Position numbers and translations under genes: made by a program
The notes under the pieces: model-generated
Database searches by the model: none
Seen by the model: only the letters and a program-made list of their open reading frames with translations
What the model was told of the DNA's origin: nothing
Virus record (IMG/VR): IMGVR_UViG_3300005992_000001
Span: 1-44,612 of that record
Direction: 5' to 3' (one strand)
From: a virus
DNA length: 44,612 nt
Shown: positions 4,083-17,266 of the stretch, piece after piece
Layout: the number at the start of each line of letters is the position of its first letter
Numbering within the stretch: position 1 is the first letter of the stretch

Positions 4083-5660
4083 CTATGCCACTCGGTAGCG
4101 GCGGCGCTTCTTAATAACAAAGCGCGCCCCCGCTACCACATTTAGCAGCATCCCGCCCCCGTATTCCGGCAGCTCTGCCCACACGTCGCCCGCTTGGTCT
4201 TTAATTACCGTTATTTCCCCCAGCAGCTCGCGCAGCGCGTCGCGTGCGGTGTCGGGCGTGCGTGCGATCATGTCAGGCAGACGATCGAGCGCGGCCTGGT
4301 ATCTTTCCATCAACCTGGGCACGATCTCGGCCGTGGGGGCGTCTGGCGCGGTCGTTTTTTCGGCGATGAGGGCGGCGCGCTCGGTTTCGGCCTGGTTTAG
4401 ACGTTCGATGAGGGCGGGCGACCAGCCTGCGCTGGCGATGGCGTCGACGAGGCGCGGAATTTGTTTTTCGAGATCGGCCAGGCGGCGGTGGGCGTGGGTG
4501 GCGCGTTGTCCGTGGGTGGCGTTGTGTTCGCGGGTCAAGCGGGCGATTTCGGCGCGCAGGGTGGCGACGGCGGCCGGGCTGGTGAGGTGTTCGCGGGCGA
4601 TGTCGAGCAGGCGCGACTCGAGCAAGGGCCGGGGGATGCGCAGGCCGGGGCAGACTGTCGCGCCGCGGTCTTTGTGTCGACCGCAGCCGTAGCAGCGGGC
4701 ATCGGCGACGATGAGCGGGCCGCCGCAGTGGCCGCAGCGTAGCAGGCCGGACCACGGCGAGCGGGCCGGGCGGCCTTTGCCGCGCGCGCGCGGGCCGCGC
4801 AGGCGGGCGCGGACGGCGGCCGCTAAGTCGTCGTCGATGATTTTCAGTTCGGGCAGGGTTTGCCGCTGCCATTCCGATTCCGGGCGCTCGATGCGGGCGC
4901 GGATGCCGGTGTCGGGGTTTTTGACCCAGCGGGATTTGTTCCACACGTAGTCTCCGCGATAGATCGGATTGCGGAGGATCCCGCTTTGCTGGCCGGCGTG
5001 GCCGGTGATGGCGGACAGTGCCCAGGTGCTGCCGCGCGGTGAGGGGACGCGGCGGAAGTTGAGGGCGTGGGCGATGGCGCGCGGGGATTCGCCCGCGGCG
5101 AATCGCTGATATATTTCGAGCACCACCGGCGCGTGCTCGGGGTGAGGCGCCAGGCGGTGGCCGCCGTCGGCGGCGGCGCTCAGATAGCCGTAGGGCAGGC
5201 CGCCAGCGCGAAGGCCGCGCGCGACTTGCCCGGCTAGGCCGCGGTGGGTTTTTTTGCCGATGATGCGCAGTTGCTCCTCGTTCAGCACGCCCATGATGCC
5301 GCGGTGCACTTCACGGCCTTCGCGCTGGCCGTCATAGCCGTCCTGCATCCCGATGATGCGCACGCCGTGGCGCTCGATTTCGCGCACGGTGCGCTCTTGG
5401 TCGACGATGTCGCGCCAGCAGCGGTCTAGCGCCTCGATGATTAATATATCTATCAGGCCGGCGCGGATGTCGGCCATGAGGCGGGCGCCGCCGTCACGTA
5501 ACAGCGTGGGCGTGCCGGCGCTGGTGGCGGCGTCGGTGTAGCAGCGCGGCGCGGGCCAGCCTTCGCGCTCGCAGCGCGCGGCGCCGGCGCGCAGTTGGTC
5601 CTCAATGGAGGTTTCGCGCTGGTTGTCGCTGGAATAGCGGGCGTAGATAGCGGGGGTCAT
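4083..5660 (-). CDS. Large serine recombinase (integrase)
   Basis: Resolvase N-domain IYARYSSDNQ (catalytic Ser), recombinase domain, Zn-ribbon LLRCGHCGG...CYGCG and a coiled-coil tail; ATG 5660 chosen over the track start 5729. Confidence 0.93.
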   Translation of the reverse strand: MTPAIYARYSSDNQRETSIEDQLRAGAARCEREGWPAPRCYTDAATSAGTPTLLRDGGARLMADIRAGLIDILIIEALDRCWRDIVDQERTVREIERHGVRIIGMQDGYDGQREGREVHRGIMGVLNEEQLRIIGKKTHRGLAGQVARGLRAGGLPYGYLSAAADGGHRLAPHPEHAPVVLEIYQRFAAGESPRAIAHALNFRRVPSPRGSTWALSAITGHAGQQSGILRNPIYRGDYVWNKSRWVKNPDTGIRARIERPESEWQRQTLPELKIIDDDLAAAVRARLRGPRARGKGRPARSPWSGLLRCGHCGGPLIVADARCYGCGRHKDRGATVCPGLRIPRPLLESRLLDIAREHLTSPAAVATLRAEIARLTREHNATHGQRATHAHRRLADLEKQIPRLVDAIASAGWSPALIERLNQAETERAALIAEKTTAPDAPTAEIVPRLMERYQAALDRLPDMIARTPDTARDALRELLGEITVIKDQAGDVWAELPEYGGGMLLNVVAGARFVIKKRRRYRVA

Positions 5661-5805
5661 GTTTCTCGCTCCGTATGCCTTCATTTTATTTGGCGCCGCG
5701 TTTGCCGGTGCCACACATATATAGAACAAGAACTTGAGATTGGCAAGCCGGGTTATGCGGCGTAGCGTCCCGAGTTATGCGGCGGAATTGCCGGATAATT
5801 TAGAG

Positions 5806-6147
5806 TTAGGCATCCTTACGTTCTTTAGCATTGTCAAACACCTGCAAGAACTTGTTGCCGTCTGTATGGGTGTCAACGCACACCATCGTAAAGTCGTCCG
5901 CCCGGTAAATCCACTTTGGCAAAAAACGCTGGGTATAAATTTCGCTCTCGTAATATTGCCCGTTTTCGTCCTTTAGTTCTTGCTCTGTATCAGCAAAGCA
6001 AACAGTCCCTCCACCGCTTCCGTCTTCTCGAATGCGCCAAAAGTATTTGTGACCATCATCAAGAGGTATAGCAACCCAATCTTCTGTATAGCCGAAATGC
6101 TCGTGTACTTTCTTCTGTAATTCAAAATATTCAGTTAGTAGTTGCAT
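5806..6147 (-). CDS. Hypothetical protein (low-GC accessory island)
   Basis: 113-aa ORF with GGAGAAA RBS; no family recognised. Confidence 0.6.
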   Translation of the reverse strand: MQLLTEYFELQKKVHEHFGYTEDWVAIPLDDGHKYFWRIREDGSGGGTVCFADTEQELKDENGQYYESEIYTQRFLPKWIYRADDFTMVCVDTHTDGNKFLQVFDNAKERKDA

Positions 6148-6215
6148 TTAATTTCTCCTTAAAGGTGCCTAACAAGGCAAATTAACAGCGACCCATTCCG
6201 CGCCGCTTCGCTCTG

Positions 6216-6470
6216 CTACATGGTCGCGTTATTTGCAACGTTAGAGCGCTCTACGTTGCGCCTTACAGCGACCATCACGTCAGCAACGAGAGACATCACC
6301 TTCGCTCGAAAGATTGGGTCATTCCTGTACCGATCCGCCCCGGAGTTCATCGCGGCCAGGGCATCGTCGAAGCTGTAGTCGGTCCCAACAAGTTTTGGCA
6401 TCTCGTCAAAGTAATTTAGGCGGGCAACCACAAGGTCTGCTATGTCGTCGCTTAGTCTTTTGTAATCCAT
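6216..6470 (-). CDS. Hypothetical protein
   Basis: 84-aa ORF with AGGAGAG RBS upstream of ATG 6470. Confidence 0.55.
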   Translation of the reverse strand: MDYKRLSDDIADLVVARLNYFDEMPKLVGTDYSFDDALAAMNSGADRYRNDPIFRAKVMSLVADVMVAVRRNVERSNVANNATM

Positions 6471-6484
6471 GTTCTCTCCTGTTG

Positions 6485-6524
6485 TAAGGTGAATGGGGTA
6501 AGGTGAATGGGGTCAGACCCCATT
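6485..6524 (-). repeat. 14-nt tandem duplication (TAAGGTGAATGGGG x2) overlapping a 7-bp hairpin
   Basis: Repeat units at 6485-6498 and 6499-6512; stem AATGGGG (6506-6512) / CCCCATT (6518-6524); intergenic between two minus-strand genes. Confidence 0.8.
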
Positions 6525-6540
6525 TATCCTGCGTTGGGCG

Positions 6541-6828
6541 TCAATTTGCCCATAAAGAAGCCGCCAATGACTTCATGTCGTTCTTCATGGCGTCCAGCGC
6601 CTCGTCTTCGGTTGCTCCCTTCCCCGAGGCGTAGTTATCATGGAACAAGTCGTGAAACGGATCGCTATTGCAGGCTTTGAAACCGGCTTCGTCCATGTTC
6701 GTAGCACCCATAAACGCAACGCCACAACGGGCCTCAAAGCGCCCATCTGGGAGCGCCTTAATATGCACGTCAGTCGTACCGGCAACGCCGATGTGTTCAC
6801 ACTTGTGCAAAGTAATTGTCTCTGGCAT
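6541..6828 (-). CDS. Hypothetical protein, possible HicB-like/UPF0150 fold
   Basis: 95-aa ORF; the C-terminus GKGATEDEALDAMKNDMKSLAASLW resembles the HicB N-domain pattern (weak). Confidence 0.5.
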   Translation of the reverse strand: MPETITLHKCEHIGVAGTTDVHIKALPDGRFEARCGVAFMGATNMDEAGFKACNSDPFHDLFHDNYASGKGATEDEALDAMKNDMKSLAASLWAN

Positions 6829-6843
6829 CTGTTCCTCCGTTTA

Positions 6844-7671
6844 TCATTTAGCCGCCAATTCGTGCGTGCGGTCCACACTAAAACCTGCCGCATTCCGATG
6901 CCCGCCACCGCCGTAGATTTTGGCCACTTCTGACACGTCGAGGCCCTCATCATTGCTACGCAGGCTGAAAGTTCTTCCCTCGGATGTGTCCCAATAGCAC
7001 GCGGCGAATGGCTCATCTAGCGCCATGAGATGACCCGCATCGCTGCTGAGGGTGTAGGGTAGGCTGGCCACGGGCACTGAATGCCCTGCAATTACCATCC
7101 GCCGCTCTGTGACGCTTAACAGCTCAAGAATGTCCTTGTGGTGCTTGCGCTCTATCGCTGCGCCGTCTGATATTAGGCTGTGCACGTCGGCTGCCATGAG
7201 TGTGTCCCACACTTTGAAATCATATGGGTAGCTGAAAAGATTGGCTTGTATTTCGCGAGTTCCTTCAAGCGCGAATTTCCAAAGGTCGCGATCTTCGATG
7301 TGTTTTAACAGTAGCGGCATCTGCTCAAAAACGTGGCCGTTGAACCATATCCACGCCAAGACAGCGCCGGAGTGATTAACATCGGTAAGTGCCTCAATCT
7401 GCTTGGACTCGATTAATGGGGCCAGATCTTCGATGGCTGTTTTGTGATGATCTATTAGCACGACGCGCGTGGCCACTTTTAGCATTTCTTCAACCACTGC
7501 CCGCTTATAGCTAAAATCGACCATGTATACCTCGCGCCCGGTCACGTCTGGCGGGGCTGATTGATAGATGCCAGCATGGAAATCGAATTCCCTGTCGGCG
7601 AAGTTTTTGAATACCCACGCAGCCCCAAAGCCGTCCGCGCAGTTTCCGTGATAGATACAAAGCGGGTTCAT
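6844..7671 (-). CDS. DHH/DHHA1-family phosphoesterase (NrnA/RecJ-like core)
   Basis: Motifs HGNCADGFGAA, VDFS, IDHHKT (DHH), EDRDLW and GGGGHRNAAGF (DHHA1). Confidence 0.85.
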   Translation of the reverse strand: MNPLCIYHGNCADGFGAAWVFKNFADREFDFHAGIYQSAPPDVTGREVYMVDFSYKRAVVEEMLKVATRVVLIDHHKTAIEDLAPLIESKQIEALTDVNHSGAVLAWIWFNGHVFEQMPLLLKHIEDRDLWKFALEGTREIQANLFSYPYDFKVWDTLMAADVHSLISDGAAIERKHHKDILELLSVTERRMVIAGHSVPVASLPYTLSSDAGHLMALDEPFAACYWDTSEGRTFSLRSNDEGLDVSEVAKIYGGGGHRNAAGFSVDRTHELAAK

Positions 7672-7716
7672 TCTGCATTTCCTTTAATTGTTTGTCATCT
7701 CGAATTTTAGACTCCG

Positions 7717-7974
7717 TTAGTAATCTTCCCCAATACCCGCATCACACTCTGCTGCGTGCTCCACCAAGTCGTCTATGAGTGTCGTTAACCGTGACGCTGC
7801 ACTAAAATCACCACTATCCCCAAAGTCGCAAAATTGATTTACGCAGAAGTCTAAATATTTTTCTCTATCTGTAACCTTAAATGATGGGCTCTCTGATATC
7901 AGTCTCACTCCATCAACCAGTGCATCCTCGTTAATTTCTATAACTAAATTTCCGTCTTTTCTAAAAGCTCTCAT
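7717..7974 (-). CDS. Hypothetical acidic protein (85 aa)
   Basis: ATG 7974 is preceded by GGAGGCGGCA; the track ORF extends to 8016. Confidence 0.5.
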   Translation of the reverse strand: MRAFRKDGNLVIEINEDALVDGVRLISESPSFKVTDREKYLDFCVNQFCDFGDSGDFSAASRLTTLIDDLVEHAAECDAGIGEDY

Positions 7975-8110
7975 TGCCGCCTCCGCATGGTGGCGCTCGG
8001 GTAGCCATCGTCGCAACTTCTAATTCGCATTCCCTGGCAATCAACTTATGCCCGCCGCGTTTTGGTCTGCTATCGCCGCGCTTCGTCTCAATGAGCTCTT
8101 GCTTAATCAT
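7961..8110 (-). CDS. Small hypothetical protein (49 aa, below track cutoff)
   Basis: Hand translation gives MIKQELIETKRGDSRPKRGGHKLIARECELEVATMATRAPPCGGGNESF; GGAGAAAAAAC precedes the ATG; the end overlaps the next gene start. Confidence 0.3.
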   Translation of the reverse strand: MIKQELIETKRGDSRPKRGGHKLIARECELEVATMATRAPPCGGGNESF

Positions 8111-8255
8111 GTTTTTTCTCCAATTGATTTATTACGGTTCCTTTCCGCCAAATAGTCTTCAAAAATCCGCGCCGCCAGCAACCGCACCAGGGCCGACGCG
8201 TCACCCGCCGGGGTGGCGGGTGGGCGTGGTGCGGTTTGCGGGTGGGTGGCGTCTT

Positions 8256-8513
8256 TCATTTCTGTTTACGCGCAAGGAAGCGGCGATGCACGCGCATGCT
8301 GGCGATGATGCCCAGTGGTCCGCCGCCGAGGAAGGCGGCGATTTCGATGCCGGTAGCGTTGGGGGCCAATTTAAAAAGCAGCAGATTGCCGATGCCGATG
8401 CCGAAGCTGGTAAAAAACGCGGCCCAATAGTGCCCGCCATTGACGTTGAGCGATTGCAAGCCCAAGAAAAAAACAAGGGCGAAGGTGCTGGCAAAGAGAG
8501 TGAGGGCGGTCAT
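8256..8513 (-). CDS. Small integral membrane protein (about 3 TM)
   Basis: ATGA overlap with the kinase stop; hydrophobic segments LTLFASTFALVFFLGL, HYWAAFFTSFGIGIGNLLLF and IAAFLGGGPLGIIA. Confidence 0.6.
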   Translation of the reverse strand: MTALTLFASTFALVFFLGLQSLNVNGGHYWAAFFTSFGIGIGNLLLFKLAPNATGIEIAAFLGGGPLGIIASMRVHRRFLARKQK

Positions 8514-9082
8514 AGTTTTATAACCGTGTGCCTGCACAGTAATGTCTCGTGCGATGTCGTTATGATGCTCCTGACGCTGGCGTGTAGTTGGTCGAGGGTG
8601 CCGTCATTATTTATCACCACATCACCCGGCCTGATTTCCAGGCCTGCCTCTGAGATATGCGGTCTCACTTTGGCCGCGTCATCGCGGTTGATGTGCCATA
8701 GCCGCCCGCCTCTTCTGCGTATCCAGTAGGCCTCGTTGGGCATTCGAATGTCTGAAATGACGGTGTGGCTTAGTGGATTTTCTATCCCCAAACGCGTAAC
8801 GGCCCTGTCGGCAATACGAATCCATATGTCATCGCGGATTAAATTCCGCCCCCACTCAGTGCCCAGAGTTTGCATGAGCGCGCGCGGGCTTTCCCAGAGC
8901 CAGGGTATGTTTCGTTCCTTGTTGGCGGGAGAGAACGCGTCATCAGGCAAGTCGAGCATTGCGACAAGGCCGCGGCGGATAGGATCTGCAAGCGCGAGTT
9001 GTCTGAAATTGTACGCGTGCCATAAGTAGTGGGCGACGGTATCCTTGCCCGCCCCCGCTTTGCCGGTGAGTCCGATTAACAT
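8510..9082 (-). CDS. Deoxynucleoside monophosphate kinase-like P-loop protein
   Basis: The N-terminus MLIGLTGKAGAGKDT (Walker A) and overall size are typical of phage dNMP kinases. Confidence 0.7.
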   Translation of the reverse strand: MLIGLTGKAGAGKDTVAHYLWHAYNFRQLALADPIRRGLVAMLDLPDDAFSPANKERNIPWLWESPRALMQTLGTEWGRNLIRDDIWIRIADRAVTRLGIENPLSHTVISDIRMPNEAYWIRRRGGRLWHINRDDAAKVRPHISEAGLEIRPGDVVINNDGTLDQLHASVRSIITTSHETLLCRHTVIKL

Positions 9083-9098
9083 AATTCACCCACTTTTT

Positions 9099-9320
9099 TT
9101 ATTTAATATGAACCCAAGTCCTATATGTGATGGCATCGAAAGCGGTGCCGCGATTAACGTGGTAAAGGCGCGCGACACATGCCATACATAATCCATTTTT
9201 TTCGTGAAGCCGCCGCATCATGCGCACCTTGCGCCCGGTTAGTTTTGCGCGGTGATGGCGTTCACCACGCTGAGACGAAACCCAATTCACGCCCATACAT
9301 TTTTTTCCTTTATAGGTCAC
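9099..9320 (-). CDS. Small HTH-type DNA-binding protein
   Basis: Pattern GERHHRAKLTGRKVRMMRRL...ARLYHVNRGTAFDAITYRTW is common in small phage HTH proteins. Confidence 0.45.
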   Translation of the reverse strand: MTYKGKKCMGVNWVSSQRGERHHRAKLTGRKVRMMRRLHEKNGLCMACVARLYHVNRGTAFDAITYRTWVHIK

Positions 9321-9365
9321 TACAATATTTTGTTTTCGCCGCGGATTGCCTTTTTTGTTTTTCCA

Positions 9366-10226
9366 TCACGCCGCACCAAAGAAAAACGGCAGCTCCGTTT
9401 GCGTCTTGATAAGATCGATGAGCATGGTGGTGGCGTCTTCCAGCGTTTTGTCGGCGCGGATGAGTTCATACCAAAACGTTAACTTTCCCTCACGCACGCG
9501 GTAGCGCAGGCGCGCATCGATCTGATAGGCCTGGCTATTCCAAAACACTGGCACGCCGATGGCGAAGCGGTCGAATATATCCATCGCGGCGACGGTGGCG
9601 GCGTCTTGATCGTCGACAAATGACAGGCGAATGCCGCCGCTTTGCAGGCGAATGGCGGATTTAAATCGGCTGTCTTGTTTTGCTTCAAAGGAAAGCGCCA
9701 TTTCAAGCATCTGTGCGCCCGTGGCGCCGCCGGAGGTGCCGGTAATGTCGCGCAGATTGTTTTCGATGAATTGGGCAAAATCGGCCTGGCTCATCGGCTT
9801 TTTATTGTTTACGGCCCATTCTCTCCATTCGCTGGAGAACGCGGGCGCATAGGTAGCGCTGTGTTTTTTCCACCTCGGCAGATCCCCCGCGCCACCGTGG
9901 TCGTCAATGATGGCCGTGAACTTGACTTCGCACTGGGTGTAATTAGCCAAGCACCACACCGTGGTGGTCAGCGGGTCGGCGTGGCGTTTGAGATAAGCGA
10001 TAAAGCTGACCGCGTCGTTAAGCGTGGCCGAGGCTGTCTTTTTTAATGGATGGGGGAGCAAGATCGAGTCGTCAAACTGGTCCATTTTCCATCCGGGCGG
10101 CAGGGCCACGCGGCGGATGTTATCGACACCAGCGATCTCATACGGGGTTTTCAGCTCGCGGGCGAGGGTTTCGGCGATGTTTTCGGCGGTGTTTGACGAG
10201 AGGGTTTCGCTTTTGATTGGCGTCAT
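9366..10226 (-). CDS. DUF2303 (YfdQ-like) protein
   Basis: 286-aa ORF with length and conserved blocks (FIAYLKRH, SFEAKQDSRFKSAIRLQSG) resembling prophage YfdQ. Confidence 0.6.
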   Translation of the reverse strand: MTPIKSETLSSNTAENIAETLARELKTPYEIAGVDNIRRVALPPGWKMDQFDDSILLPHPLKKTASATLNDAVSFIAYLKRHADPLTTTVWCLANYTQCEVKFTAIIDDHGGAGDLPRWKKHSATYAPAFSSEWREWAVNNKKPMSQADFAQFIENNLRDITGTSGGATGAQMLEMALSFEAKQDSRFKSAIRLQSGGIRLSFVDDQDAATVAAMDIFDRFAIGVPVFWNSQAYQIDARLRYRVREGKLTFWYELIRADKTLEDATTMLIDLIKTQTELPFFFGAA

Positions 10227-10253
10227 TGTTGCGTTCCTGTGTGGAGGTGGTGT

Positions 10254-10586
10254 TTATGCGTTTTTCAACGACGCATTCGTGGGCGCGTCTGCAATTTTAA
10301 GGTCGAGCTTTTTTTGTTGCGGGTCGTCTGCAACGAGATTGCCCTCGGGGGTGGCGAAGAGCATCGCCTCCATCGTGTCAGTGACCGGCGCCTTGAGTGT
10401 GGAGCGTCCGGTGATGTGCATGGCGCCGCCGCGCGTGGCTTTTTTTACGGTAATCTCCAATATCAGCTTGCCGGATTTTCCGGTATCGCCCACGGCGTTT
10501 ACTAAGTCATTAAGCTTGTTGCTAGCCTGATCCACAAAGGCGCCGCCGCCGATGTGGTGCAGGGTTTCGCTGATGGGGCGTGACAT
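10254..10586 (-). CDS. Hypothetical protein (110 aa)
   Basis: ATG 10586 is preceded by AAAGGAGCA; the longer track ORF to 10739 is Arg/Pro-rich. Confidence 0.55.
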   Translation of the reverse strand: MSRPISETLHHIGGGAFVDQASNKLNDLVNAVGDTGKSGKLILEITVKKATRGGAMHITGRSTLKAPVTDTMEAMLFATPEGNLVADDPQQKKLDLKIADAPTNASLKNA

Positions 10587-10600
10587 GGGTGCTGCTCCTT

Positions 10601-10888
10601 TCAAATAAGCCCAAGCTGATCGGGCGGGGGGGGTTGTTGTCTCTCGGCGATGAGGCGGGCGGCCCGCGCTTGCGCCTCCAGTGTTTTTAAAATCAGCGGC
10701 GTGGTGATGGCCCGCTGGTAATTCCAGCCCCGCCGCCACAAGCCGCTGCGCTGGAATGCGCGGCGCAGCTCGGCGGCGGTTGGGTTTGTATCAGGGCGGG
10801 TCACGTCGCCGCGCCCTGGCCGCCGCGCGGCCGTTGCTGCGATTGGCGATGCAGGTGTTGCAGCGGCCGACGCGGCGATTGCCGACAC
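10601..10888 (-). CDS. Hypothetical protein, start uncertain (possibly GTG 10804)
   Basis: The conserved-looking C-terminal part is AELRRAFQRSGLWRRGWNYQRAITTPLILKTLE; the N-terminal 28 codons overlap the upstream gene. Confidence 0.45.
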   Translation of the reverse strand: MSAIAASAAATPASPIAATAARRPGRGDVTRPDTNPTAAELRRAFQRSGLWRRGWNYQRAITTPLILKTLEAQARAARLIAERQQPPPPDQLGLI

Positions 10889-10982
10889 GGATAAAGCGCG
10901 TTGCTTCGTTGATGCCGCAATCGTTGCAGAGCTTGCGCAGCGGCTTGTCTATGGCCTCGCGGGTGTTGTCGTGCGGCTTCAT
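10791..10982 (-). CDS. Small CxxC...CxxC zinc-ribbon protein
   Basis: ATG 10982 (MKPHDN...); CNDCG...CNTC. Confidence 0.5.
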   Translation of the reverse strand: MKPHDNTREAIDKPLRKLCNDCGINEATRFIRVGNRRVGRCNTCIANRSNGRAAARARRRDPP

Positions 10983-10998
10983 GGTGACGTCCCCCATT

Positions 10999-11238
10999 TC
11001 ATTCGCGGCGTTTGCGCGGTTGCGGGCGCCATGGGCCATTCACGCGCGCGGTGATCTCGGCCATGCTCAACCGTTTTGCATGCTCGGCGGCGATGCGCAG
11101 GCTTTTCTCGGCGTGCCGTTGTTTTTCTCCCGCAATAGTGCAGGCCTTGCATTCCGGGCGCAGATTTTTGCCGTTGATATAAAAATTCAGCGGTGATTTT
11201 TGGGCGCCGCACACTTTGCAAGTAATGAGGTCTACCAT
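10999..11238 (-). CDS. Small CxxC...CxxC zinc-ribbon protein
   Basis: CKVCG...CKAC; same architecture as the 10791..10982 product. Confidence 0.5.
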   Translation of the reverse strand: MVDLITCKVCGAQKSPLNFYINGKNLRPECKACTIAGEKQRHAEKSLRIAAEHAKRLSMAEITARVNGPWRPQPRKRRE

Positions 11239-11432
11239 GGGCGATGCTCTTCTTTTGTCGCCAGCGCCGGGCGCGGATCATCGGCGCAGTGTTCGTCGGC
11301 GTCGTCGATAGCGGCTGGGCGCAGCGTGTCGAGCAGGAAGCCCAGCACCAATAAGCAGGTGTTAAAAATTGCATGGCGCATTTTTCTAAGCCTCCCTGTT
11401 TTTTCGTCGATTTCGCCGACCGGATCAGTCAT
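11232..11432 (-). CDS. Small membrane protein (1 TM)
   Basis: 66-aa ORF with FNTCLLVLGFLL; overlapping starts and stops with its neighbours. Confidence 0.4.
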   Translation of the reverse strand: MTDPVGEIDEKTGRLRKMRHAIFNTCLLVLGFLLDTLRPAAIDDADEHCADDPRPALATKEEHRPW

Positions 11433-11652
11433 GGCGTGGCGTCATGTTGGTGGCCATCCCATGCACGCGCTGAATGGCGTCACTCAGCCTCGGGGCGCGG
11501 GTGATACCTCTATTCATGCCCATGGCGGCGCCGTGCTGCGTATACGGGCCGCTCTCGACCTTGCCGCGGGTGACAAAATAAAAGCCGCTGCGCTGTGGGT
11601 GGTCTCGATGCCAGACGTGCACCACGCGGCCGCTGCGGAAGATGGCCTTCAT
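11425..11652 (-). CDS. Hypothetical protein
   Basis: 75-aa ORF, ATGA-type overlaps at both ends. Confidence 0.4.
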   Translation of the reverse strand: MKAIFRSGRVVHVWHRDHPQRSGFYFVTRGKVESGPYTQHGAAMGMNRGITRAPRLSDAIQRVHGMATNMTPRHD

Positions 11653-11879
11653 TTCCCGGCCCTCGGATGAAATTGGCCGACGGGGCAGTCGCGGAACTGG
11701 GTGCAGTCGGCCACGGCGCGGCGGGTGTCGATGGCCGCCTGCTTGTCGATGGCGGCAAAAAAGGTGCCTACCAGCAAGAAGGCGAAGACGATGAATGTGG
11801 CGAGCACCGCCAGCGTTTCCACGCAGCGCAGACGCGCGCGGCGGCGTTGGTTTTCAGAATGGCCGAAGTCTGAACGCAT
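11649..11879 (-). CDS. Small membrane protein (1 TM)
   Basis: 76-aa ORF with LAVLATFIVFAFLLVGTFFAAI. Confidence 0.45.
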   Translation of the reverse strand: MRSDFGHSENQRRRARLRCVETLAVLATFIVFAFLLVGTFFAAIDKQAAIDTRRAVADCTQFRDCPVGQFHPRAGK

Positions 11880-11905
11880 GGACTATCTCCTTTTAGCGGT
11901 GCAAT

Positions 11906-12154
11906 TTAGGCGCACCAGGACCAGGGGCACTTGCCGTCGATCATCCACACAGCGCGGCCTTCTTGGCTGGCCTGGGTGATTCCGGCGGCGAACTGGACGT
12001 TGGGCGGCTGTTTGAGGATGCGGCGGCGGTCTTTGCCGCTGCGGTGGTCTTCGGTGCTGGGGCAGCCGCTCATGCCGCACATACAGGGGGCGCCGTCCGT
12101 TGGCGTGGATGGGGTGTGCTGTGGGGTGGTGGCGATCCAATTGTAGATGTTCAT
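11906..12154 (-). CDS. First gene of the leftward early operon, hypothetical
   Basis: 82-aa ORF immediately downstream of the PL-like promoter. Confidence 0.5.
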   Translation of the reverse strand: MNIYNWIATTPQHTPSTPTDGAPCMCGMSGCPSTEDHRSGKDRRRILKQPPNVQFAAGITQASQEGRAVWMIDGKCPWSWCA

Positions 12155-12186
12155 GTAATTTGGTCCGTGATGGCCTGTTGTGTAGA

Positions 12187-12226
12187 AGTAAACTACAGTT
12201 TACCCTTAAAGTCAACAGCAGTTGAC
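12187..12226 (-). promoter_or_regulatory. PL-like promoter with two perfect 6-4-6 palindromic operators
   Basis: GTAAACTACAGTTTAC (12188-12203) and GTCAACAGCAGTTGAC (12211-12226); on the minus strand TTGACT (12215-12210), a 17-nt spacer, then TTTACT (12192-12187). Confidence 0.6.
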
Positions 12227-12300
12227 CCCCGAAATTAAATTATGTTGCGCAATTGATCGAATCACTTTAAAAATTAGGTGAAGAGGTGAGGGGTGCGATA

Positions 12301-12732
12301 ATGAAAATGGATAGATTAATTGTGATGTTGTTGGCCCCTGGGATGATGGGTGCCAATATTTTTAAATGCGCCGACGGTAATCAAGTCATCTATAGCGACA
12401 GGGTTTGTGGCGAAGTTGTTGAGAGGCTTGGAATTATACCTAGCGCAACACCTGATTCGTTTCCATCTGATCAGTATTCTGAGCTATTACGCAGCGCCGA
12501 TGAGCGCGCCGATCGTGATGCGTTTCGTCGTAAAATGAGGGAGGCGGCTAGAGCTAATAGCGTTATAGTGGGGATGGATGCCAGTTGGGTGATTGCTGCT
12601 TGGGGCAAGCCGGATAGGGTTAATAATGGAATAAATGTATCAGGAAGCTGGGAGCAATGGGTATATGAAAGAAGTCGCAAGCAAACTCAATATGTACATT
12701 TTATGAACGGTAAAGTTGTGTCAGCAGAGTGA
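12301..12732 (+). CDS. Secreted DUF4124-like plus BamE/SmpA-like protein (moron)
   Basis: Signal-like N-terminus MKMDRLIVMLLAPGMMGA; FKCADGNQVIYSDRVC is the DUF4124 pattern; VGMDASWVIAAWGKP...WEQWVY is BamE-like. Confidence 0.6.
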   Translation: MKMDRLIVMLLAPGMMGANIFKCADGNQVIYSDRVCGEVVERLGIIPSATPDSFPSDQYSELLRSADERADRDAFRRKMREAARANSVIVGMDASWVIAAWGKPDRVNNGINVSGSWEQWVYERSRKQTQYVHFMNGKVVSAE

Positions 12733-12742
12733 GAGTAGTGTT

Positions 12743-13015
12743 ATGGAAATTTTTATGGCGGCGGTGCTGTTGGGTTTGATTCCTGCGGTAATCGCATCTA
12801 AAAAAGGATACAGTTTTTTACTGTGGTGGGTTTTCGGAATATTTTTGCTAATCATTGCTTTGCCTATCGTGTTGATTATCGGCCCAAATAAGGGGGTTAT
12901 GCGTAAATGCCCGCGGTGCCTAGAATGGGTGAGACGGGAAGCAAGTGCATGCAAGTATTGCGGCGGAGAAATGAATAAAGCGAAAAGTGAATTGATAGGG
13001 GATGGCCCTGTTTAG
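12743..13015 (+). CDS. 2-TM membrane protein with C-terminal zinc ribbon (moron)
   Basis: TM segments AAVLLGLIPAVI and LLWWVFGIFLLIIALPIVLII, then CPRC...CKYCG. Confidence 0.55.
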   Translation: MEIFMAAVLLGLIPAVIASKKGYSFLLWWVFGIFLLIIALPIVLIIGPNKGVMRKCPRCLEWVRREASACKYCGGEMNKAKSELIGDGPV

Positions 13016-13028
13016 TTATGGATATTCA

Positions 13029-13237
13029 TTATTTAATCATTGTTTTTATTAGGTTTATTAAAGCTTCCCTCTGATTTGGTTTTAGGCTTCTGAAATCATT
13101 TAGTAGCGACATTTCCGTGTCGACTAAATATTCCCCAGCGGTATCTCGCACGCCATATGTGATGAACATTTCACCTTTCCCAGTAATAAGCCAATCGCCA
13201 TTCACCCTAGCATTTTTCTTTAAATTGGCGAGCGCAT
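13029..13237 (-). pseudogene. 3' fragment of the IS-disrupted CI-type (XRE/HTH_3) repressor
   Basis: Hand translation gives ANLKKNARVNGDWLITGKGEMFITYGVRDTAGEYLVDTEMSLLNDFRSLKPNQREALINLIKTMIK*; it is in phase with the 5' fragment across the 9-bp duplication. Confidence 0.8.
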
Positions 13238-14602
13238 GAGCCTATCCTGATTTTTGTGTGTAGAGGTCATATCATGCTAACAGAAGGAGATATGAATGAC
13301 CGCCACACCCAAGAAGGCGCGCCAGCGCAAACCCAAAGGCCCGTTTTCCGACGAGCTGCTTGACCAGTTACTTGCCCAAGTCTCGGGCAAAGACGCCGAG
13401 AGCTTGCTCGGTGAATCTGGCCTGATCGGGCAACTCAAGAAACAACTCGCCGAACGCATGCTCGCCGCCGAACTAAGCCACCATCTGATCAGCGAAGCGA
13501 GCGATGAGGGGGCGGGCAACCACCGTAATGGCAGCAGCGCCAAGACCGTCATCACGCCCAACGGCGCGCTTGATCTCAACATCCCGCGCGACCGCCTCGC
13601 CACCTTCGAACCCCAGCTCGTGGCCAAATACCAGCGTCGCCTACCCGGCTTCAACGACCACGTGATCAGCATGTACGGGCGCGGCATGACGATCCGCGAG
13701 GTTCAAGGCCATCTGGCCGAGCTGTATGGCCTGGAAGTCTCGCCCGAGCTGATCTCCACCATCACCGACGAAGTGATGGCCGAGGTGACCGAGTGGCAGG
13801 GTCGGCCGCTCGATGCCATGTACCCCATCGTCTACTTCGATGCTCTGCGGCTCAAGATTCGCGACGAAGGCACGGTCAAGAATAAGGCGGTCTATCTGGC
13901 GCTGGGCATTGACGCCACCGGCCGCAAGGATGTGCTGGGGCTGTGGATCGAGCAGACCGAGGGGGCTAAGTTCTGGCTCAAGGTGTTTAACGATCTCAAG
14001 CAGCGCGGCGTGGCCGATGTCCTGATCGCGGTCGTGGATGGCCTGCGCGGGTTTCCCGAGGCGATCGAAGCGGTGTTTCCGCAAGCGCAAATCCAGACCT
14101 GCATCGTGCATCTGATCCGCACTTCCCTGAATTACGTGGGCTGGAAGGATCGCAAAGCGCTGGCCGCCGAACTGAAAGGGATCTACCAAGCCACCAACGC
14201 GGACGCGGCGGAAGCGGCCCTGACCGAATTCGAGCAAGGCGCCTGGGGGCGCAAATTCCCGCCCATCGCCCTTGCCTGGCGGCGGCAGTGGACGCAGGTG
14301 ATTCCGTTCTTCGCCTACCCGCCGGAGGTGCGCAAGATTATCTACACCACGAATGCCATTGAGAGTTTGCATATGCGATTACGCAAGATCGTGAAGAATC
14401 GCGGCCACTTCCCGAGCGATGAATCGGCCACGAAGCTGTTGTTCCTGGCCTTGCGCAATATCGTTAAAGATTGGAAGATGCCACCACGCACTTGGAAGGA
14501 AGCTGCAAATCAATTCGCCATTATCTTTGGCGAACGATTCACGGCTTCATTGAATTGAGACTGTGATCAACCCGGCCTCACACACAAAATTATGGATACG
14601 CC
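13238..14602 (+). mobile_element. IS256-family insertion sequence (1365 bp)
   Basis: Imperfect terminal IRs at 13238-13266 and 14576-14602; flanking 9-bp direct repeat CGAGCGCAT at 13229-13237 and 14603-14611; a single Mutator-type transposase ORF. Confidence 0.9.
13296..14558 (+). CDS. IS256-family (Mutator-type) transposase
   Basis: 420 aa; signature VDGLRGFPEAIEAVFPQAQIQTCIVHLIR and YTTNAIESLH; AAGGAG RBS. Confidence 0.95.
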   Translation: MTATPKKARQRKPKGPFSDELLDQLLAQVSGKDAESLLGESGLIGQLKKQLAERMLAAELSHHLISEASDEGAGNHRNGSSAKTVITPNGALDLNIPRDRLATFEPQLVAKYQRRLPGFNDHVISMYGRGMTIREVQGHLAELYGLEVSPELISTITDEVMAEVTEWQGRPLDAMYPIVYFDALRLKIRDEGTVKNKAVYLALGIDATGRKDVLGLWIEQTEGAKFWLKVFNDLKQRGVADVLIAVVDGLRGFPEAIEAVFPQAQIQTCIVHLIRTSLNYVGWKDRKALAAELKGIYQATNADAAEAALTEFEQGAWGRKFPPIALAWRRQWTQVIPFFAYPPEVRKIIYTTNAIESLHMRLRKIVKNRGHFPSDESATKLLFLALRNIVKDWKMPPRTWKEAANQFAIIFGERFTASLN

Positions 14603-14756
14603 CGAGCGCATCGCGCTCAGGCCGAGCTTTAGCTGCAAACCAATTCCCCGATGCGGTTTTTGAAACACCAGCAAGGCGACCAAGCCCAGATTTATCTACG
14701 CCGAGCGTTTTGGCCAGCAGTGCAATCCGTTCCGCTATGTCTGGACAGTATGTCAT
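14603..14756 (-). pseudogene. 5' fragment of the IS-disrupted CI-type repressor
   Basis: MTYCPDIAERIALLAKTLGVDKSGLGRLAGVSKTASGNWFAAKARPERDAL, then 18 codons read from the IS end (track ORF 14547..14756). Confidence 0.8.
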
Positions 14757-14759
14757 ATA

Positions 14760-14820
14760 GTCAATTTTAGTTTACTTTCGGTTAATTCAGGTTGACGATA
14801 ACGGTAAACCGTGGTTTACT
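14760..14820 (+). promoter_or_regulatory. OR/PR-like region: three 6-4-6 operators and the rightward promoter
   Basis: GTCAATTTTAGTTTAC (14760-14775), GTTAATTCAGGTTGAC (14781-14796) and GTAAACCGTGGTTTAC (14804-14819); TTGACG (14792-14797), a 17-nt spacer, then TTTACT (14815-14820). Confidence 0.6.
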
Positions 14821-14827
14821 TTATCGC

Positions 14828-15022
14828 ATGATCACTAAACGCCAGCTTCTAACCCGCTATGAGACTCAAGTCGCTATAGCCGATTTGTTCGGCATCAGCA
14901 AACAGGCTGTGTCGCGCTGGGGTCTGGATGATCCAATCCCCAGAGCGCAGGAATTAAGGTTGAGATACGAGCTTTCTCCTCGTCTTTATGCGCCAGATAA
15001 AGATATTAATTGCGAATCGTGA
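14828..15022 (+). CDS. Cro/YdaS-like HTH protein
   Basis: QVAIADLFGISKQAVSRWG is an HTH; divergent from the repressor; the ATG lies 7 nt after the -10-like hexamer with no SD. Confidence 0.65.
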   Translation: MITKRQLLTRYETQVAIADLFGISKQAVSRWGLDDPIPRAQELRLRYELSPRLYAPDKDINCES

Positions 15023-15159
15023 ATGGGCATTAAAAAAGAGACTGCTCTATGACCGGAATCGAAAAAGCGGTGAAGCCGTTTAAGACCCAGACCGCGGTGG
15101 ATGCCGTGATGCGAGGTAGAGCGCTGGTTCATTTTTCATTTTTTCCATTTCTCCTGTTG

Positions 15160-15186
15160 GCGCGTCACTTTGGCGCGCTTTTTTTT
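15160..15186 (+). terminator. Intrinsic terminator between the cro-like and cII-like genes (tR1-like position)
   Basis: 7-bp stem GCGCGTC (15160-15166) / GGCGCGC (15172-15178, one G-U pair), 5-nt loop, then T8 (15179-15186). Confidence 0.6.
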
Positions 15187-15221
15187 AACTTATTTCCGTC
15201 CTACAACGCGACTCAATCGTT

Positions 15222-15632
15222 ATGAGCGGCATTGAGGCACAGGCGGTTTTGACCTTGGCGCCACCGAGCCGGGCGGTGGATTTGGCGACGGTGCGCCGCT
15301 GTGCGTCGATGACGCGAGCGATTGATTTGTGCGTGCAGCTCGCGGGCGAGAAGAATGACAAGCCGATTTATGGGGATCTGGAAATTGATGTGGCGACGTG
15401 GTCGCGCATTAAGACGGGCGCGGCGAATTTTCCACACGAAAAATTTGAGGCGCTGATGGATCGCTGCGGCAATGATGTGCCGCTGCTGTGGCTGGCGGAT
15501 CGCCGCGGCTATGAGCTGCGCCGAAAGTTGTCGGCGGTGGAGCAAGAGCTGGAGGGCGAGCGGGCGCGGCGTTTTGAGCTTGAGCGCAAGCTGGCCTATT
15601 TCGAAGAGCTGATGGGAAAGGTGGTGCGCTGA
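15222..15632 (+). CDS. cII-like/phage regulatory protein (HTH plus C-terminal coiled coil)
   Basis: The position after cro, the block WSRIKTGAANFPHEKFEALMDRCGNDVPLLWLADRRGY and a heptad-like tail; family assignment is tentative. Confidence 0.4.
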   Translation: MSGIEAQAVLTLAPPSRAVDLATVRRCASMTRAIDLCVQLAGEKNDKPIYGDLEIDVATWSRIKTGAANFPHEKFEALMDRCGNDVPLLWLADRRGYELRRKLSAVEQELEGERARRFELERKLAYFEELMGKVVR

Positions 15633-15649
15633 TTACCGGGGAGGCTGAC

Positions 15650-15856
15650 ATGGATAGGGCGGATTTTGCACAAGACAAGATTGATGCGGAGCAGGCGCAG
15701 CGTGTGGCGGCGCGGGTGGTGTATTACGGCGTGAGTGCGGGGGAGTGTATCGAGTGCGGTGAGCTGATCCCCAGTGCGCGGCAGGTGGCATTGCCCGGCT
15801 GTTTGTATTGCGTGGACTGTGTGGCAAGCATTGAGCGCGGTGAGGTGCGGCCATGA
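15650..15856 (+). CDS. TraR/DksA-family C4 zinc-finger protein
   Basis: CIECGELIPSARQ...CLYCVDC; GGGGAGG RBS. Confidence 0.75.
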   Translation: MDRADFAQDKIDAEQAQRVAARVVYYGVSAGECIECGELIPSARQVALPGCLYCVDCVASIERGEVRP

Positions 15857-16239
15857 ACTTGTTTATTTTTTGCCTAGAGCATGAAATTTTTGAGCTGGCG
15901 AATCTGGGGGCCATAAATGATTGCATTCAGCCCTGGCGCGCTGATGGGCGTATTCCAAAAAACGGCGATGTGGCGCGTTTCTACGCGACAAAATTTGGAT
16001 TAAGAACGGGGGATATTCACTGCGTCACCATCATCGACTCTTTGACATTGGCAATCTGCCCTAAGACGCATGCAGTGCGTCTTGAAGGTAGGTCATCAGA
16101 TGACGATGAAAAATTTGTTCTGGCATATAAATGCGGATTGTTTGACGCGGATGATCTTTTTGTTGGCTTACAGTCTCAGTTCAATGGCTTTGTGATTGCA
16201 TTCCACATTGACAGAACCATTCGATGTGGTGACGTATGA
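15853..16239 (+). CDS. Hypothetical protein (lower GC)
   Basis: 128-aa ORF with ATGA overlaps at both ends. Confidence 0.5.
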   Translation: MNLFIFCLEHEIFELANLGAINDCIQPWRADGRIPKNGDVARFYATKFGLRTGDIHCVTIIDSLTLAICPKTHAVRLEGRSSDDDEKFVLAYKCGLFDADDLFVGLQSQFNGFVIAFHIDRTIRCGDV

Positions 16240-16892
16240 CGCTATCACGCACGGGCGAGCCATCAACCCAAACACCCATCAAAATCACGCCTGAGCTGCT
16301 GGAGGCGATGACCGATTGTGATGATGGCGATGCCGAGATATGGGCGCCCCTTCTTACGCGCGCGGCGGCGCGGTATGACATCAGCACCCCGGCGAGGATG
16401 GCGGCCTGGGTGGGGCAGATTGCGCATGAGTCGCAGCGCTTTCGCCACACGGTAGAGAATTTAAACTACAGCGCCGCGCGTCTGCGGCAGGTTTTTCCGC
16501 GCCATTTTCCCGATTCGCGCATTGCGGGTGCGTATGCGCATGCGCCCGAGCGCATTGCCAATCGTGTTTATGCCCATCGCCTTGGCAATGGCGATGAGGC
16601 CAGCGGCGACGGATGGCGATTTCGTGGCCGGGGTTTGATTCAAATCACTGGGCGCGATAATTATCGCGCGTGCGGCGCTGGCATTTACCTGAATGTGATT
16701 ACGCATCCCGATATATTAACTATTCCACTGCGCGCGGCAACGTCGGCGGCGTGGTATTGGCATGTGCGTAAGCTGAATGCGCTCGCTGACAACAGTGATT
16801 ATGAATTGATAACGCGCCGCGTCAATGGCGGGCTGAATGGTCTGCAAGACAGGGTGAATCTCTCCATGCGCGCGCTGCGGGCGCTGGCATGA
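16236..16892 (+). CDS. Glycoside hydrolase family 19 (chitinase-like) lysozyme
   Basis: Blocks AAWVGQIAHESQRF, ENLNYSA, RFRGRGLIQITGRDNY and RRVNGGLNGLQDR are typical of phage GH19 muramidases. Confidence 0.85.
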   Translation: MTLSRTGEPSTQTPIKITPELLEAMTDCDDGDAEIWAPLLTRAAARYDISTPARMAAWVGQIAHESQRFRHTVENLNYSAARLRQVFPRHFPDSRIAGAYAHAPERIANRVYAHRLGNGDEASGDGWRFRGRGLIQITGRDNYRACGAGIYLNVITHPDILTIPLRAATSAAWYWHVRKLNALADNSDYELITRRVNGGLNGLQDRVNLSMRALRALA

Positions 16893-17266
16893 ATCAGCAC
16901 GCGTATAGTTTCCATCCGCAATTCGTCATGCCCTTGCTGCATGGCTTGAAGCTGCAAACGATACGCCGCCGCCATGATGATGAGCCCGCGCCGCTGCCAG
17001 GCGATACGGCGCGCTTGTATGCGGATGGGGATGACGGTCGCGCTGAGCTGTTGCTGAGCGTCATCATTACGCAGGTGCGGCCGGTCGCGATTCGTACCCG
17101 CTCGCGAACGATCACCCTCGACGGCGAGCTATTGTCATTGCTGCGCGCCCATGATTTCGCGCAGGCGGACGGCTTTGATAACCGTGATGCGCTGCTGGCG
17201 TACATCGCCAAGGTGTATGGCGATATGGAGTTCAGTGGCTGGTGCATCAATTGGGATGAGCCATGA
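16889..17266 (+). CDS. ASCH-domain-like protein
   Basis: FVMPLLHGLKLQTIRRR...PGDTARLY...FAQADGF fits the ASCH pattern. Confidence 0.55.
   Translation: MNQHAYSFHPQFVMPLLHGLKLQTIRRRHDDEPAPLPGDTARLYADGDDGRAELLLSVIITQVRPVAIRTRSRTITLDGELLSLLRAHDFAQADGFDNRDALLAYIAKVYGDMEFSGWCINWDEP

What the first reader, a model, noticed from the sequence alone, without database searches (positions are those of the whole stretch)
13029..14756. IS256-family element inserted in the CI-type repressor gene, with a 9-bp target duplication and an exactly restorable frame
The IS ends are imperfect inverted repeats: 13238-13266 GAGCCTATCCTGATTTTTGTGTGTAGAGG against the reverse complement of 14576-14602, GGCGTATCCATAATTTTGTGTGTGAGG. 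They are flanked by the direct repeat CGAGCGCAT at 13229-13237 and 14603-14611. On the minus strand, the ORF upstream of the IS (MTYCPDIAERIALLAKTLGVDKSGLGRLAGVSKTASGNWFAAKARPERDAL) and the fragment beyond it (ANLKKNARVNGDWLITGKGEMF...LIKTMIK*) are in the same phase across the duplicated 9-mer. Deleting the IS plus one duplication copy gives a 117-aa XRE/HTH_3 protein. The typical WL(L/I)TGKGEM end of that domain is supplied only by the distal fragment. As it stands, the gene reads 18 codons into the IS end and stops. Inference: the lysogeny repressor is knocked out while its operators are intact, so this may be a derepressed or virulent derivative, which would fit its recovery as a closed circle.
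Basis: partly seen in the sequence, partly recalled or inferred. Interest (0 to 1): 0.78.

Follow-up and report, generated by a model that had tools for sequence, protein, structure and literature searches.

The report
Jumping gene splits a phage repressor
A complete temperate phage genome has a mobile IS256-family insertion sequence sitting cleanly inside its lysogeny-repressor gene; this is a textbook kind of mutation that probably makes the phage grow only lytically, so it is tidy rather than surprising.

Summary
A 1,366-bp IS256-family insertion sequence lies at 13238-14603. Its 420-aa transposase scores 402.9 bits on Pfam Transposase_mut and 403.9 bits on NCBIfam IS256. It interrupts a minus-strand gene after codon 51.

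Fifteen related copies in betaproteobacterial genomes show that the element ends one base later than reported. The true target duplication is therefore 8 bp (GAGCGCAT), not 9.

Removing the IS and one duplicate restores a 117-aa protein. Its DNA-binding domain matches the P22 C2 repressor (E=7e-6). Two uninterrupted homologues (55-58% identity) run through the junction without a gap.

The gene is divergent from a Cro-like gene. Three operator-like palindromes lie in the 71-bp spacer, and two more lie upstream of the early-left operon. The three-site pattern recurs in a relative.

Three other metagenome contigs, from separate samples, are 100% identical across the junctions, so this is not an assembly chimera. 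No IS-free allele of this phage was found.

The phage keeps an intact serine integrase and full lytic modules. Loss of lysogeny (a clear-plaque, obligately lytic phage) is the likely consequence, but it is inferred. Insensitivity to immunity, which is what "virulent" strictly means, is not implied.

This is a known kind of event.

The parts
13238..14603 (+). Insertion sequence of the IS256 family, 1,366 bp, present once in the window
   Evidence: Homology to 15 related copies begins exactly at 13238 and ends at 14603. The nearest relative is L009, at 90.6% nucleotide and 95% amino-acid identity. Only one copy is in the window.
13238..13266 (+). Left terminal inverted repeat (IRL)
   Evidence: It aligns to the reverse complement of the right end, about 23 of 29 positions with one internal gap. 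It is conserved in all related copies.
14576..14603 (-). Right terminal inverted repeat (IRR), including the terminal C at 14603
   Evidence: The terminal C is invariant in 15 related copies, including two that have no target duplication.
13296..14558 (+). Transposase gene, 420 aa, intact
   Evidence: Pfam Transposase_mut E=1.6e-120, covering profile positions 8-377 of 379. NCBIfam IS256 family transposase, 403.9 bits against a cutoff of 150. PHROG 2331 transposase, E=4e-158.
13230..13237 (.). Target-site duplication, left copy (GAGCGCAT)
14604..14611 (.). Target-site duplication, right copy (GAGCGCAT)
14604..14756 (-). 5' fragment of the repressor gene (codons 1-51). As it stands, the ORF runs on to 14547 and gives a 69-aa product.
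   Evidence: The 69-aa product is P0003, recorded on four contigs.
13029..13237 (-). 3' fragment of the repressor gene (codons 49/52-117 plus stop), orphaned by the IS
   Evidence: It is in frame with the 5' fragment once 13238-14611 is removed. Residues 52-73 are 18/22 identical to P0001.
14757..14827 (.). Repressor/cro intergenic control region with three operator-like palindromes (14760-14775, 14781-14796, 14804-14819)
   Evidence: The same three-site layout occurs in the 69-bp spacer of relative L004, where 0.16 matches are expected by chance.
14828..15022 (+). Cro-like gene (64 aa), first gene of the early-right operon
   Evidence: Pfam P22_Cro E=2.3e-5, below the curated cutoff; PHROG 409 transcriptional regulator.
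12188..12226 (.). Two further operator-like palindromes (12188-12203 and 12211-12226), upstream of the early-left operon whose first gene starts at 12154 on the minus strand
4083..5729 (-). Large serine recombinase (integrase), intact. This is context showing that the phage is temperate by design.
   Evidence: Pfam Resolvase + Recombinase + Zn_ribbon_recom. PHROG 95 integrase, E=8.5e-83.

Best explanation
The window is a complete lambda-like temperate siphophage genome, 44,541 bp unique and assembled as a circle. A 1,366-bp IS256-family insertion sequence has transposed into codon 51/52 of its immunity-repressor gene and made the usual 8-bp target duplication.

The insertion splits the five-helix helix-turn-helix DNA-binding domain at about helix 4. 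It also separates that domain from the C-terminal part, which is presumably the oligomerisation region. What remains is a 69-aa product (51 native plus 18 IS-encoded residues).

**Shown:**
- the element, its ends and its duplication;
- the exact restorability of the frame;
- the identity of the gene family;
- the operator-like sites;
- the recurrence of the same junctions in four assemblies.

**Inferred:**
- The truncated protein cannot repress, so the phage can neither establish nor maintain lysogeny. It would then propagate as a clear-plaque, obligately lytic derivative.
- The event is recent. The integrase and the orphaned 3' fragment show no decay.
- It happened in a betaproteobacterial (Burkholderiales-type) host that carries this IS lineage.
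For: - **IS identity and ends:**
- **8-bp duplication in relatives:**. This is consistent with IS256 and ISCth4, which make 8-bp duplications by copy-out/paste-in transposition (PMC7780238).
- **Restored frame of 117 aa:**
- **Contiguous IS-free homologues:** P0001 (148 aa) and P0002 (131 aa) align through the junction without an indel, ERDAL|ANLKK against EREALANLKK. P0001 sits divergent from a P22_Cro-like gene with the same downstream TraR-GH19 gene order.
- **Repressor fold:** the P22 C2 N-terminal domain matches residues 8-68; phage 21 cI matches residues 7-116.
- **Operators:** the exact palindrome GTAAAC-N4-GTTTAC occurs twice where 0.0012 is expected. There are five sites in all, confined to the two control regions, and the pattern is confirmed independently in L004.
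- **No backup repressor:** no second repressor paralogue is in the window.
- **Not a chimera:** L001 and L002 span both junctions, L003 spans the right one, and all three are 100% identical to the window.
- **Temperate backbone intact:** integrase, DnaB, O-like initiator, terminase, portal, capsid and tail genes.
- **Circular assembly:**
Against: - No IS-free allele of this same phage was found. The empty site is therefore inferred from homologues that are only 55-58% identical.
- The Pfam CI-repressor hit is 0.9 bit below its curated cutoff.
- The AlphaFold model was too poor to use (pLDDT 52).
- In L007 the homologue is not adjacent to an annotated cro-like gene, and another HTH_3 gene occupies the divergent position.
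- Loss of function of the 69-aa product and the lytic lifestyle were not measured.
- The four assemblies come from consecutive JGI sample numbers, probably one study, so they may sample a single population.
- A circular contig also arises from induced wild-type prophages.
Confidence: 0.85

Rival explanations
1. The IS-bearing genome is still a resident prophage. It would be kept silent by repressor supplied in trans from a homoimmune co-resident prophage, or by residual activity of the 69-aa fragment. On this reading the circle reflects spontaneous excision or induction rather than an obligately lytic lineage.
For: - The integrase is intact.
- The operators are intact, so repression in trans would work.
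- The same allele is present in four samples at 100% identity, which fits a stable lineage.
- Helices 1-3, including the recognition helix, remain in the 69-aa product.
Against: - No host flanks are attached to any of the four contigs, and the longest closes on itself.
- No second repressor copy is in the window.
- The protein database of 5.8 billion clusters holds no full-length allele.
- By analogy with P22 C2 and 434, a five-helix HTH domain lacking helices 4-5 is not expected to fold. This is established knowledge, not tested here.
Confidence: 0.1
2. The junction is an assembly artefact: a chimera between a phage contig and a multi-copy IS from the host.
For: L003 ends 119 bp inside the IS (window 14484). 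This is the behaviour expected of a repeat that breaks assemblies.
Against: - Both junctions are reproduced identically in the window, L001 and L002, which come from separate samples.
- There is a perfect 8-bp duplication exactly at ends defined independently from 15 other copies.
- The frame restores exactly, matching homologues without an indel.
- A chimera would not create a target duplication.
Confidence: 0.01
3. The interrupted gene is an accessory HTH regulator rather than the lysogeny repressor, so the insertion has little effect on lifestyle.
For: - The family is tiny, with three clusters in 5.8 billion.
- The Pfam and DicA hits are below their curated cutoffs.
- It has no S24 autocleavage domain.
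- In L007 a different HTH_3 gene holds the divergent position.
Against: - It occupies the canonical position, divergent from a Cro-like gene across 71 bp that holds three palindromes.
- The same palindrome occurs at the early-left promoter region.
- The layout is conserved in L004 alongside an identical recognition-helix sequence, GVSKTASGNWF.
- No other candidate repressor was detected near the switch.
Confidence: 0.04

Closest known systems
IS insertions in the lambda cI repressor gene, the principle behind the transposon-trap plasmids pGBG1 and pBACpAK
   Same: A resident insertion sequence lands in a phage CI-type repressor gene and abolishes repression of the operator-controlled promoter. 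This is frequent enough to be used as a positive selection for mobile elements (PMC2266754; further papers listed).
   Different: Here the event is natural. It sits in the phage's own genome in environmental metagenomes, involves an unrelated short repressor (117 aa, no S24 domain), and involves a different IS family member.
Lactobacillus casei phage phiFSV, derived from temperate phiFSW by insertion of ISL1 (Shimizu-Kadota et al. 1985). The reference is listed in PMC3530524; the details are from my own knowledge.
   Same: A lytic derivative of a temperate phage created by a host IS transposing into the prophage.
   Different: As I recall it, phiFSV is truly virulent, meaning it grows on the lysogen. 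Nothing here shows insensitivity to immunity. ISL1 is an IS3-family element, not IS256.
IS256 (Staphylococcus) and ISCth4, the reference members of the IS256 family
   Same: A single transposase ORF of the Mutator/IS256 type, imperfect terminal inverted repeats, 8-bp target duplications and a size of about 1.3-1.5 kb (PMC7780238). IS256 insertions can be reversed by rare precise excision (PMC11178275).
   Different: The subterminal TGTAAA motif noted for several family members is absent; TTTGTGTGT is there instead. The target 8-mers are not notably A/T-rich. The transposition mechanism was not tested.
Unnamed IS256-family elements of Burkholderiales, including those in Burkholderia phages phiBt-TXDOH, vB_RY3 and vB_RY5
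   Same: The same IS lineage. Burkholderia copies are 77-78% identical at the nucleotide level. Copies in uncultured betaproteobacterial MAGs are 82-91% identical, are multi-copy and have 8-bp duplications. The lineage also occurs inside phage genomes.
   Different: In those cultured phages the IS lies between genes of unknown function, not in the repressor.
P22 C2, phage 21 cI and DicA repressors
   Same: A five-helix HTH DNA-binding domain, a position divergent from cro, and multiple palindromic operators at two promoters.
   Different: There is no LexA-like C-terminal autocleavage domain. Identity is only 28%. The family is very small.

Membership tests
IS256 family insertion sequence | Transposase of the IS256/Mutator (DDE) type | tested here: met
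   PF00872 at 402.9 bits against a cutoff of 21, covering profile positions 8-377 of 379. NCBIfam NF033543 at 403.9 bits against a cutoff of 150. The individual DDE residues were not inspected.
IS256 family insertion sequence | Compact element (about 1.2-1.5 kb) with one transposase ORF and imperfect terminal inverted repeats | tested here: met
   1,366 bp with one 420-aa ORF. The inverted repeats match at about 23 of 29 positions.
IS256 family insertion sequence | 8-bp (8-9 bp) target-site duplication | tested here: met
   GAGCGCAT is present twice. Nine of 12 related copies with a duplication are unambiguously 8 bp. The literature value is 8 bp (PMC7780238).
IS256 family insertion sequence | Evidence of mobility: multiple copies with different flanks | tested here: met
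   At least 6-7 copies per genome in MAGs MFD03044.bin.1.57 and MFD01476.bin.1.209, each with its own duplication. These copies are 82-83% identical to the window's element, not identical to it.
IS256 family insertion sequence | Subterminal TGTAAA motif in the inverted repeats. This is noted in some members and is not strictly defining. | tested here: not met
   It is absent from the first 60 bases of either end.
IS256 family insertion sequence | Copy-out/paste-in transposition through a circular intermediate | not testable with these tools
   This needs PCR for IS circles or in vitro assays.
Lambdoid CI/C2-type immunity repressor | N-terminal five-helix HTH (XRE/CI) DNA-binding domain | tested here: met
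   A profile matches P22 C2 (1ADR, 3JXB) at E=7e-6 over residues 8-68. PF07022 scores 21.1 bits, 0.9 below its cutoff. PHROG 2328 repressor, E=5e-7.
Lambdoid CI/C2-type immunity repressor | Divergent from a cro-like gene across a short spacer with several operators, with the same operators at the early-left promoter | tested here: met
   The 71-bp spacer holds three palindromes and there are two more at 12188-12226. The pattern was derived here and then confirmed in L004.
Lambdoid CI/C2-type immunity repressor | C-terminal LexA-like (Peptidase S24) autocleavage domain | tested here: not met
   The protein is 117 aa with no S24 hit in Pfam or NCBIfam. It works like a CI repressor but is not a LexA-family member. 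It is closer in format to short repressors such as DicA, although that hit (27 bits) is far below the cutoff of 101.
Lambdoid CI/C2-type immunity repressor | Binds the operators and maintains lysogeny | not testable with these tools
   This needs a gel-shift or an immunity assay.

The most novel reading that the evidence does not exclude
The insertion may be more than a dead knockout.

(a) The intact 8-bp duplication allows rare precise excision, as documented for IS256 in staphylococcal ica. The phage population could then toggle between obligately lytic and temperate states.

(b) The transposase gene points toward cro, and no terminator-like site is predicted between its stop (14558) and cro (14828). 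Read-through could then drive the early-right lytic operon independently of repressor, giving a truly immunity-insensitive virulent phage of the phiFSV type.
Probability: 0.07. Interest if true: 0.6.

Novelty: new member of a known kind. Interest (0 to 1): 0.3.

Why it matters
This is a clean natural example, seen in four environmental assemblies, of how a temperate phage can become a lytic one in a single transposition step. It also shows an IS riding on a phage genome. It is useful in three ways:
- as an annotation lesson, because two ORF fragments and an IS together make one repressor;
- as a source of a defined repressor/operator pair (GTAAAC-N4-GTTTAC) for an otherwise unstudied phage group of betaproteobacteria;
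- as a candidate for testing IS-mediated switching of lifestyle.

It does not change any concept. IS knockouts of phage repressors have been known since work on lambda cI and are exploited in transposon-trap vectors.

Tried and rejected
- **Exact restored junction:** a search of viral contigs for the 31-mer gave 0 hits.
- **IS left end:** a search of viral contigs gave 0 hits.
- **Related-locus scans with the restored protein:** viral and metagenome contigs returned only the 55%-identical relative and the truncated L003 contig, with no IS-free allele.
- **Profile search:** a search from the three-sequence alignment added no new homologues.
- **AlphaFold2:** the model built on that shallow alignment had mean pLDDT 52 and pTM 0.29. 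I judged it unusable and made no fold search. Only its helix positions are mentioned, as weak support.
- **GC contrast as evidence of foreign origin:** rejected. The IS (58.7%) equals the phage average (58.1%); only the immediate immunity region is AT-rich.
- **9-bp duplication:** rejected in favour of 8 bp.
- **Flanks of the closest IS copy (L009):** they share nothing with the phage.
- **Consensus sigma-70 scan:** it found no convincing outward promoter at the IS ends.
- **Literature search for a described IS-in-repressor metagenomic phage:** it found only general precedents.
Full report
**1. The observation**

The region was read directly and ORFs were listed.

- **ORFs.** A 420-aa plus-strand ORF (13296-14558) lies between two minus-strand ORF fragments. 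One is 14547-14756 (69 aa). The other is the open frame ending at 13029.
- **Direct repeat and ends.** CGAGCGCAT is present at 13229-13237 and 14603-14611. The quoted terminal sequences are correct. The repeat finder also recovers the terminal inverted repeat (I1).
- **Restored frame.** Deleting 13238-14611 produces an uninterrupted 117-aa ORF. As it stands, the gene yields 51 native residues plus 18 IS-encoded codons.
- **Circularity.** The window's first 71 bases are repeated at its end. The contig is therefore a circularly closed assembly of 44,541 unique bases.

**2. The element**

The 420-aa protein is a full-length IS256/Mutator-type transposase:
- Pfam PF00872, E=1.6e-120;
- NCBIfam "IS256 family transposase", 403.9 bits against a cutoff of 150;
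- PHROG 2331.

A genome scan returned 80 loci encoding relatives, mostly Burkholderiales.
- The closest is a short MAG contig, L009, at 95% amino-acid and 90.6% nucleotide identity.
- Next are multi-copy elements (82-84% nucleotide identity) in uncultured betaproteobacterial MAGs.
- Burkholderia copies, including three in cultured Burkholderia phages, are about 78% identical.

Homology to these copies begins exactly at 13238. All 15 close copies end with an extra invariant C after ...GGATACGYC.
- Nine have an unambiguous 8-bp duplication.
- Three are compatible with 8 or 9 bp.
- None requires 9 bp.
- Two have no duplication.

The window's element is therefore 13238-14603 (1,366 bp) with the 8-bp duplication GAGCGCAT. 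With the extra C the two inverted repeats align from position 1. Eight base pairs is the value reported for IS256 and ISCth4, which move by copy-out/paste-in transposition (PMC7780238). The TGTAAA motif mentioned there is absent here.

GC content does not mark the IS as foreign: 58.7% against 58.1% for the phage. Only the surrounding immunity region is AT-rich.

**3. The interrupted gene**

Several lines identify the restored 117-aa protein as a CI/C2-type repressor.
- It matches Pfam Phage_CI_repr over residues 14-73 at 21.1 bits, just under the cutoff of 22.
- It matches PHROG repressor families.
- A three-sequence profile hits the DNA-binding domain of P22 C2 repressor (1ADR, 3JXB; residues 8-68; E=7e-6).
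- tblastn finds phage 21 cI, mEp235 and DE3 repressors at 27.7% identity over residues 7-116.
- No S24 autocleavage domain is present.

The insertion point, after residue 51, falls at about helix 4 of the five-helix domain. This rests on the alignment to P22 C2 and, weakly, on a low-confidence model. Helices 4-5 and the whole C-terminal part are therefore lost.

**4. IS-free relatives**

Only three clusters in the 5.8-billion-cluster protein collection match.
- P0001: 148 aa, 55% identity.
- P0002: 131 aa, 58% identity.
- P0003: the truncated 69-aa product itself.

P0001 and P0002 align through the junction with no gap, ERDAL|ANLKKNARVNGDW against EREALANLKKYARVNDDW. Identity to P0001 is 38/51 before the junction and 18/22 just after it. 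The orphaned fragment therefore shows no decay.

P0001 lies divergent from a P22_Cro-like gene, followed by TraR and GH19 genes in the same order as in the window. The refuting outcome "no contiguous ORF in relatives" did not occur.

No IS-free allele of this same phage was found in any collection.

**5. Reality of the junctions**

P0003 is encoded on three further JGI contigs from samples 3300005940, 3300005943 and 3300005956. All three are 100% identical to the window over their full lengths.
- L001 covers window 4797-17050.
- L002 covers window 11348-16467.
- L003 covers window 14484-16435.

Two of them span both junctions. The third spans the right junction and stops inside the IS. Together with the perfect duplication, this rules out a chimera for practical purposes. 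The samples probably belong to one study, so they may represent a single population.

**6. Operators**

The 71-bp spacer between the repressor start (14756) and the cro-like start (14828) contains the exact palindrome GTAAAC-CGTG-GTTTAC. A second exact copy lies at 12188-12203, just upstream of the first early-left gene, which starts at 12154 on the minus strand. About 0.0012 exact copies are expected by chance.

Relaxing the pattern to GTMAAY-N4-GTTKAC gives five sites and nothing elsewhere in 44.6 kb:
- three in the spacer, spaced 21 and 23 bp apart;
- two at 12188-12226.

The chance expectation is 0.42 matches, but the pattern was refined after seeing the sites.

As an independent test, the same pattern was run on relative L004. 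It finds three sites, all inside the 69-bp repressor/cro spacer, where 0.16 is expected. One site lies upstream of P0002 in L007. The predicted recognition helix (GVSKTASGNWF) is identical in the window and P0001.

This supports both the repressor assignment and the statement that the operators are intact.

**7. Genome context**

The window encodes:
- an intact large serine integrase (4083-5729);
- DnaB-like helicase and an O-like initiator;
- Nu1-like and lambda-type terminase subunits;
- portal, protease, major capsid, tape-measure and tail proteins.

There are no tRNAs, no second repressor copy and no second IS copy. It is a complete temperate phage in which the repressor is the only visibly broken gene. 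The IS plus duplication adds 3.2% to the genome length.

**8. Mechanism and consequence**

*Shown:* an IS256-family element inserted into the repressor gene.

*Inferred:* the repressor is null, so the phage cannot establish or maintain lysogency and propagates lytically. The circular assembly, the absence of host flanks and the undecayed integrase and gene fragments all fit a recent event in an actively replicating phage. None of them proves it.

A repressor-null phage with intact operators is a clear-plaque mutant that should remain sensitive to repressor made by a lysogen. "Virulent" in the strict sense would need repressor-independent lytic transcription. The only hint of that is that the transposase gene is co-oriented with cro and no terminator-like site is predicted between them. 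That is speculation.

The main rival is that the IS-bearing genome is still a prophage silenced in trans. It cannot be excluded without reads.

**9. Comparison with what is known, and verdict**

- IS insertions into lambda cI are common enough to underlie transposon-trap plasmids such as pGBG1 (PMC2266754).
- ISL1 converting phage phiFSW into the lytic phiFSV is the classical natural case. The reference is listed in PMC3530524; the details are from my own knowledge.
- IS elements in phage genomes are uncommon but documented (PMC3091744).
- IS256 insertions are known to be reversible by rare precise excision (PMC11178275).

The finding is therefore a new member of a known kind: a new IS variant, a new phage and a small, unstudied repressor family. 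Interest is modest.

Noticed in passing
window 1-71 and 44542-44612: The first 71 bases are repeated exactly at the end, so the contig is a circularly closed assembly with 44,541 unique bases.
   Followed up: yes
window 16236-16892 (+); also L004 4919-5569, L005 3726-4376, L007 1998-2645: A GH19 endolysin-like gene (PHROG 181, E=6e-78) sits in the early-right operon a few genes after cro and shortly after a TraR/DksA zinc-finger gene (one 128-aa ORF lies between them here). The TraR-GH19 neighbourhood is conserved in relatives. This is an unusual place for an endolysin; no separate lysis cassette was looked for.
   Followed up: partly
window 12286-13015 (+): Two plus-strand genes lie in a 40-45% GC island between the early-left operators and the 3' end of the repressor gene, convergent with the repressor. 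One is 148 aa with a signal-peptide-like N-terminus. The other is 99 aa with hydrophobic segments and a zinc ribbon. They look like morons, possibly lysogenic-conversion or exclusion genes.
   Followed up: partly
L007 1-2001: In this relative the repressor homologue P0002 has one operator-like palindrome upstream (284-299). A different 139-aa HTH_3 gene occupies the position divergent from TraR. This suggests a mosaic or double immunity region.
   Followed up: no
window 14757-14830: By eye, -10-like hexamers lie only about 7 nt from both the cro-like ATG (TTTACT, 14815-14820) and the repressor ATG (TAAAAT on the minus strand, 14764-14769). Both mRNAs may be leaderless or nearly so, as lambda cI is from PRM.
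   Followed up: no
window 14595-14612 (-): A terminator-like hairpin followed by a T-rich tract is formed by the right copy of the target duplication plus the IS right end, on the repressor-sense strand. It may be chance; about 3 such sites are expected in the scanned region.
   Followed up: no
L091 2448-3716 (Burkholderia phage phiBt-TXDOH); L092 2448-3716 (vB_RY3): Cultured Burkholderia phages carry a 78%-identical IS256-family element in non-repressor positions. In two of the records it is annotated only as a hypothetical protein.
   Followed up: partly
L009 and L023: Two related IS copies lack any target duplication. This suggests IS-mediated rearrangement or recombination between copies in those genomes.
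   Followed up: no
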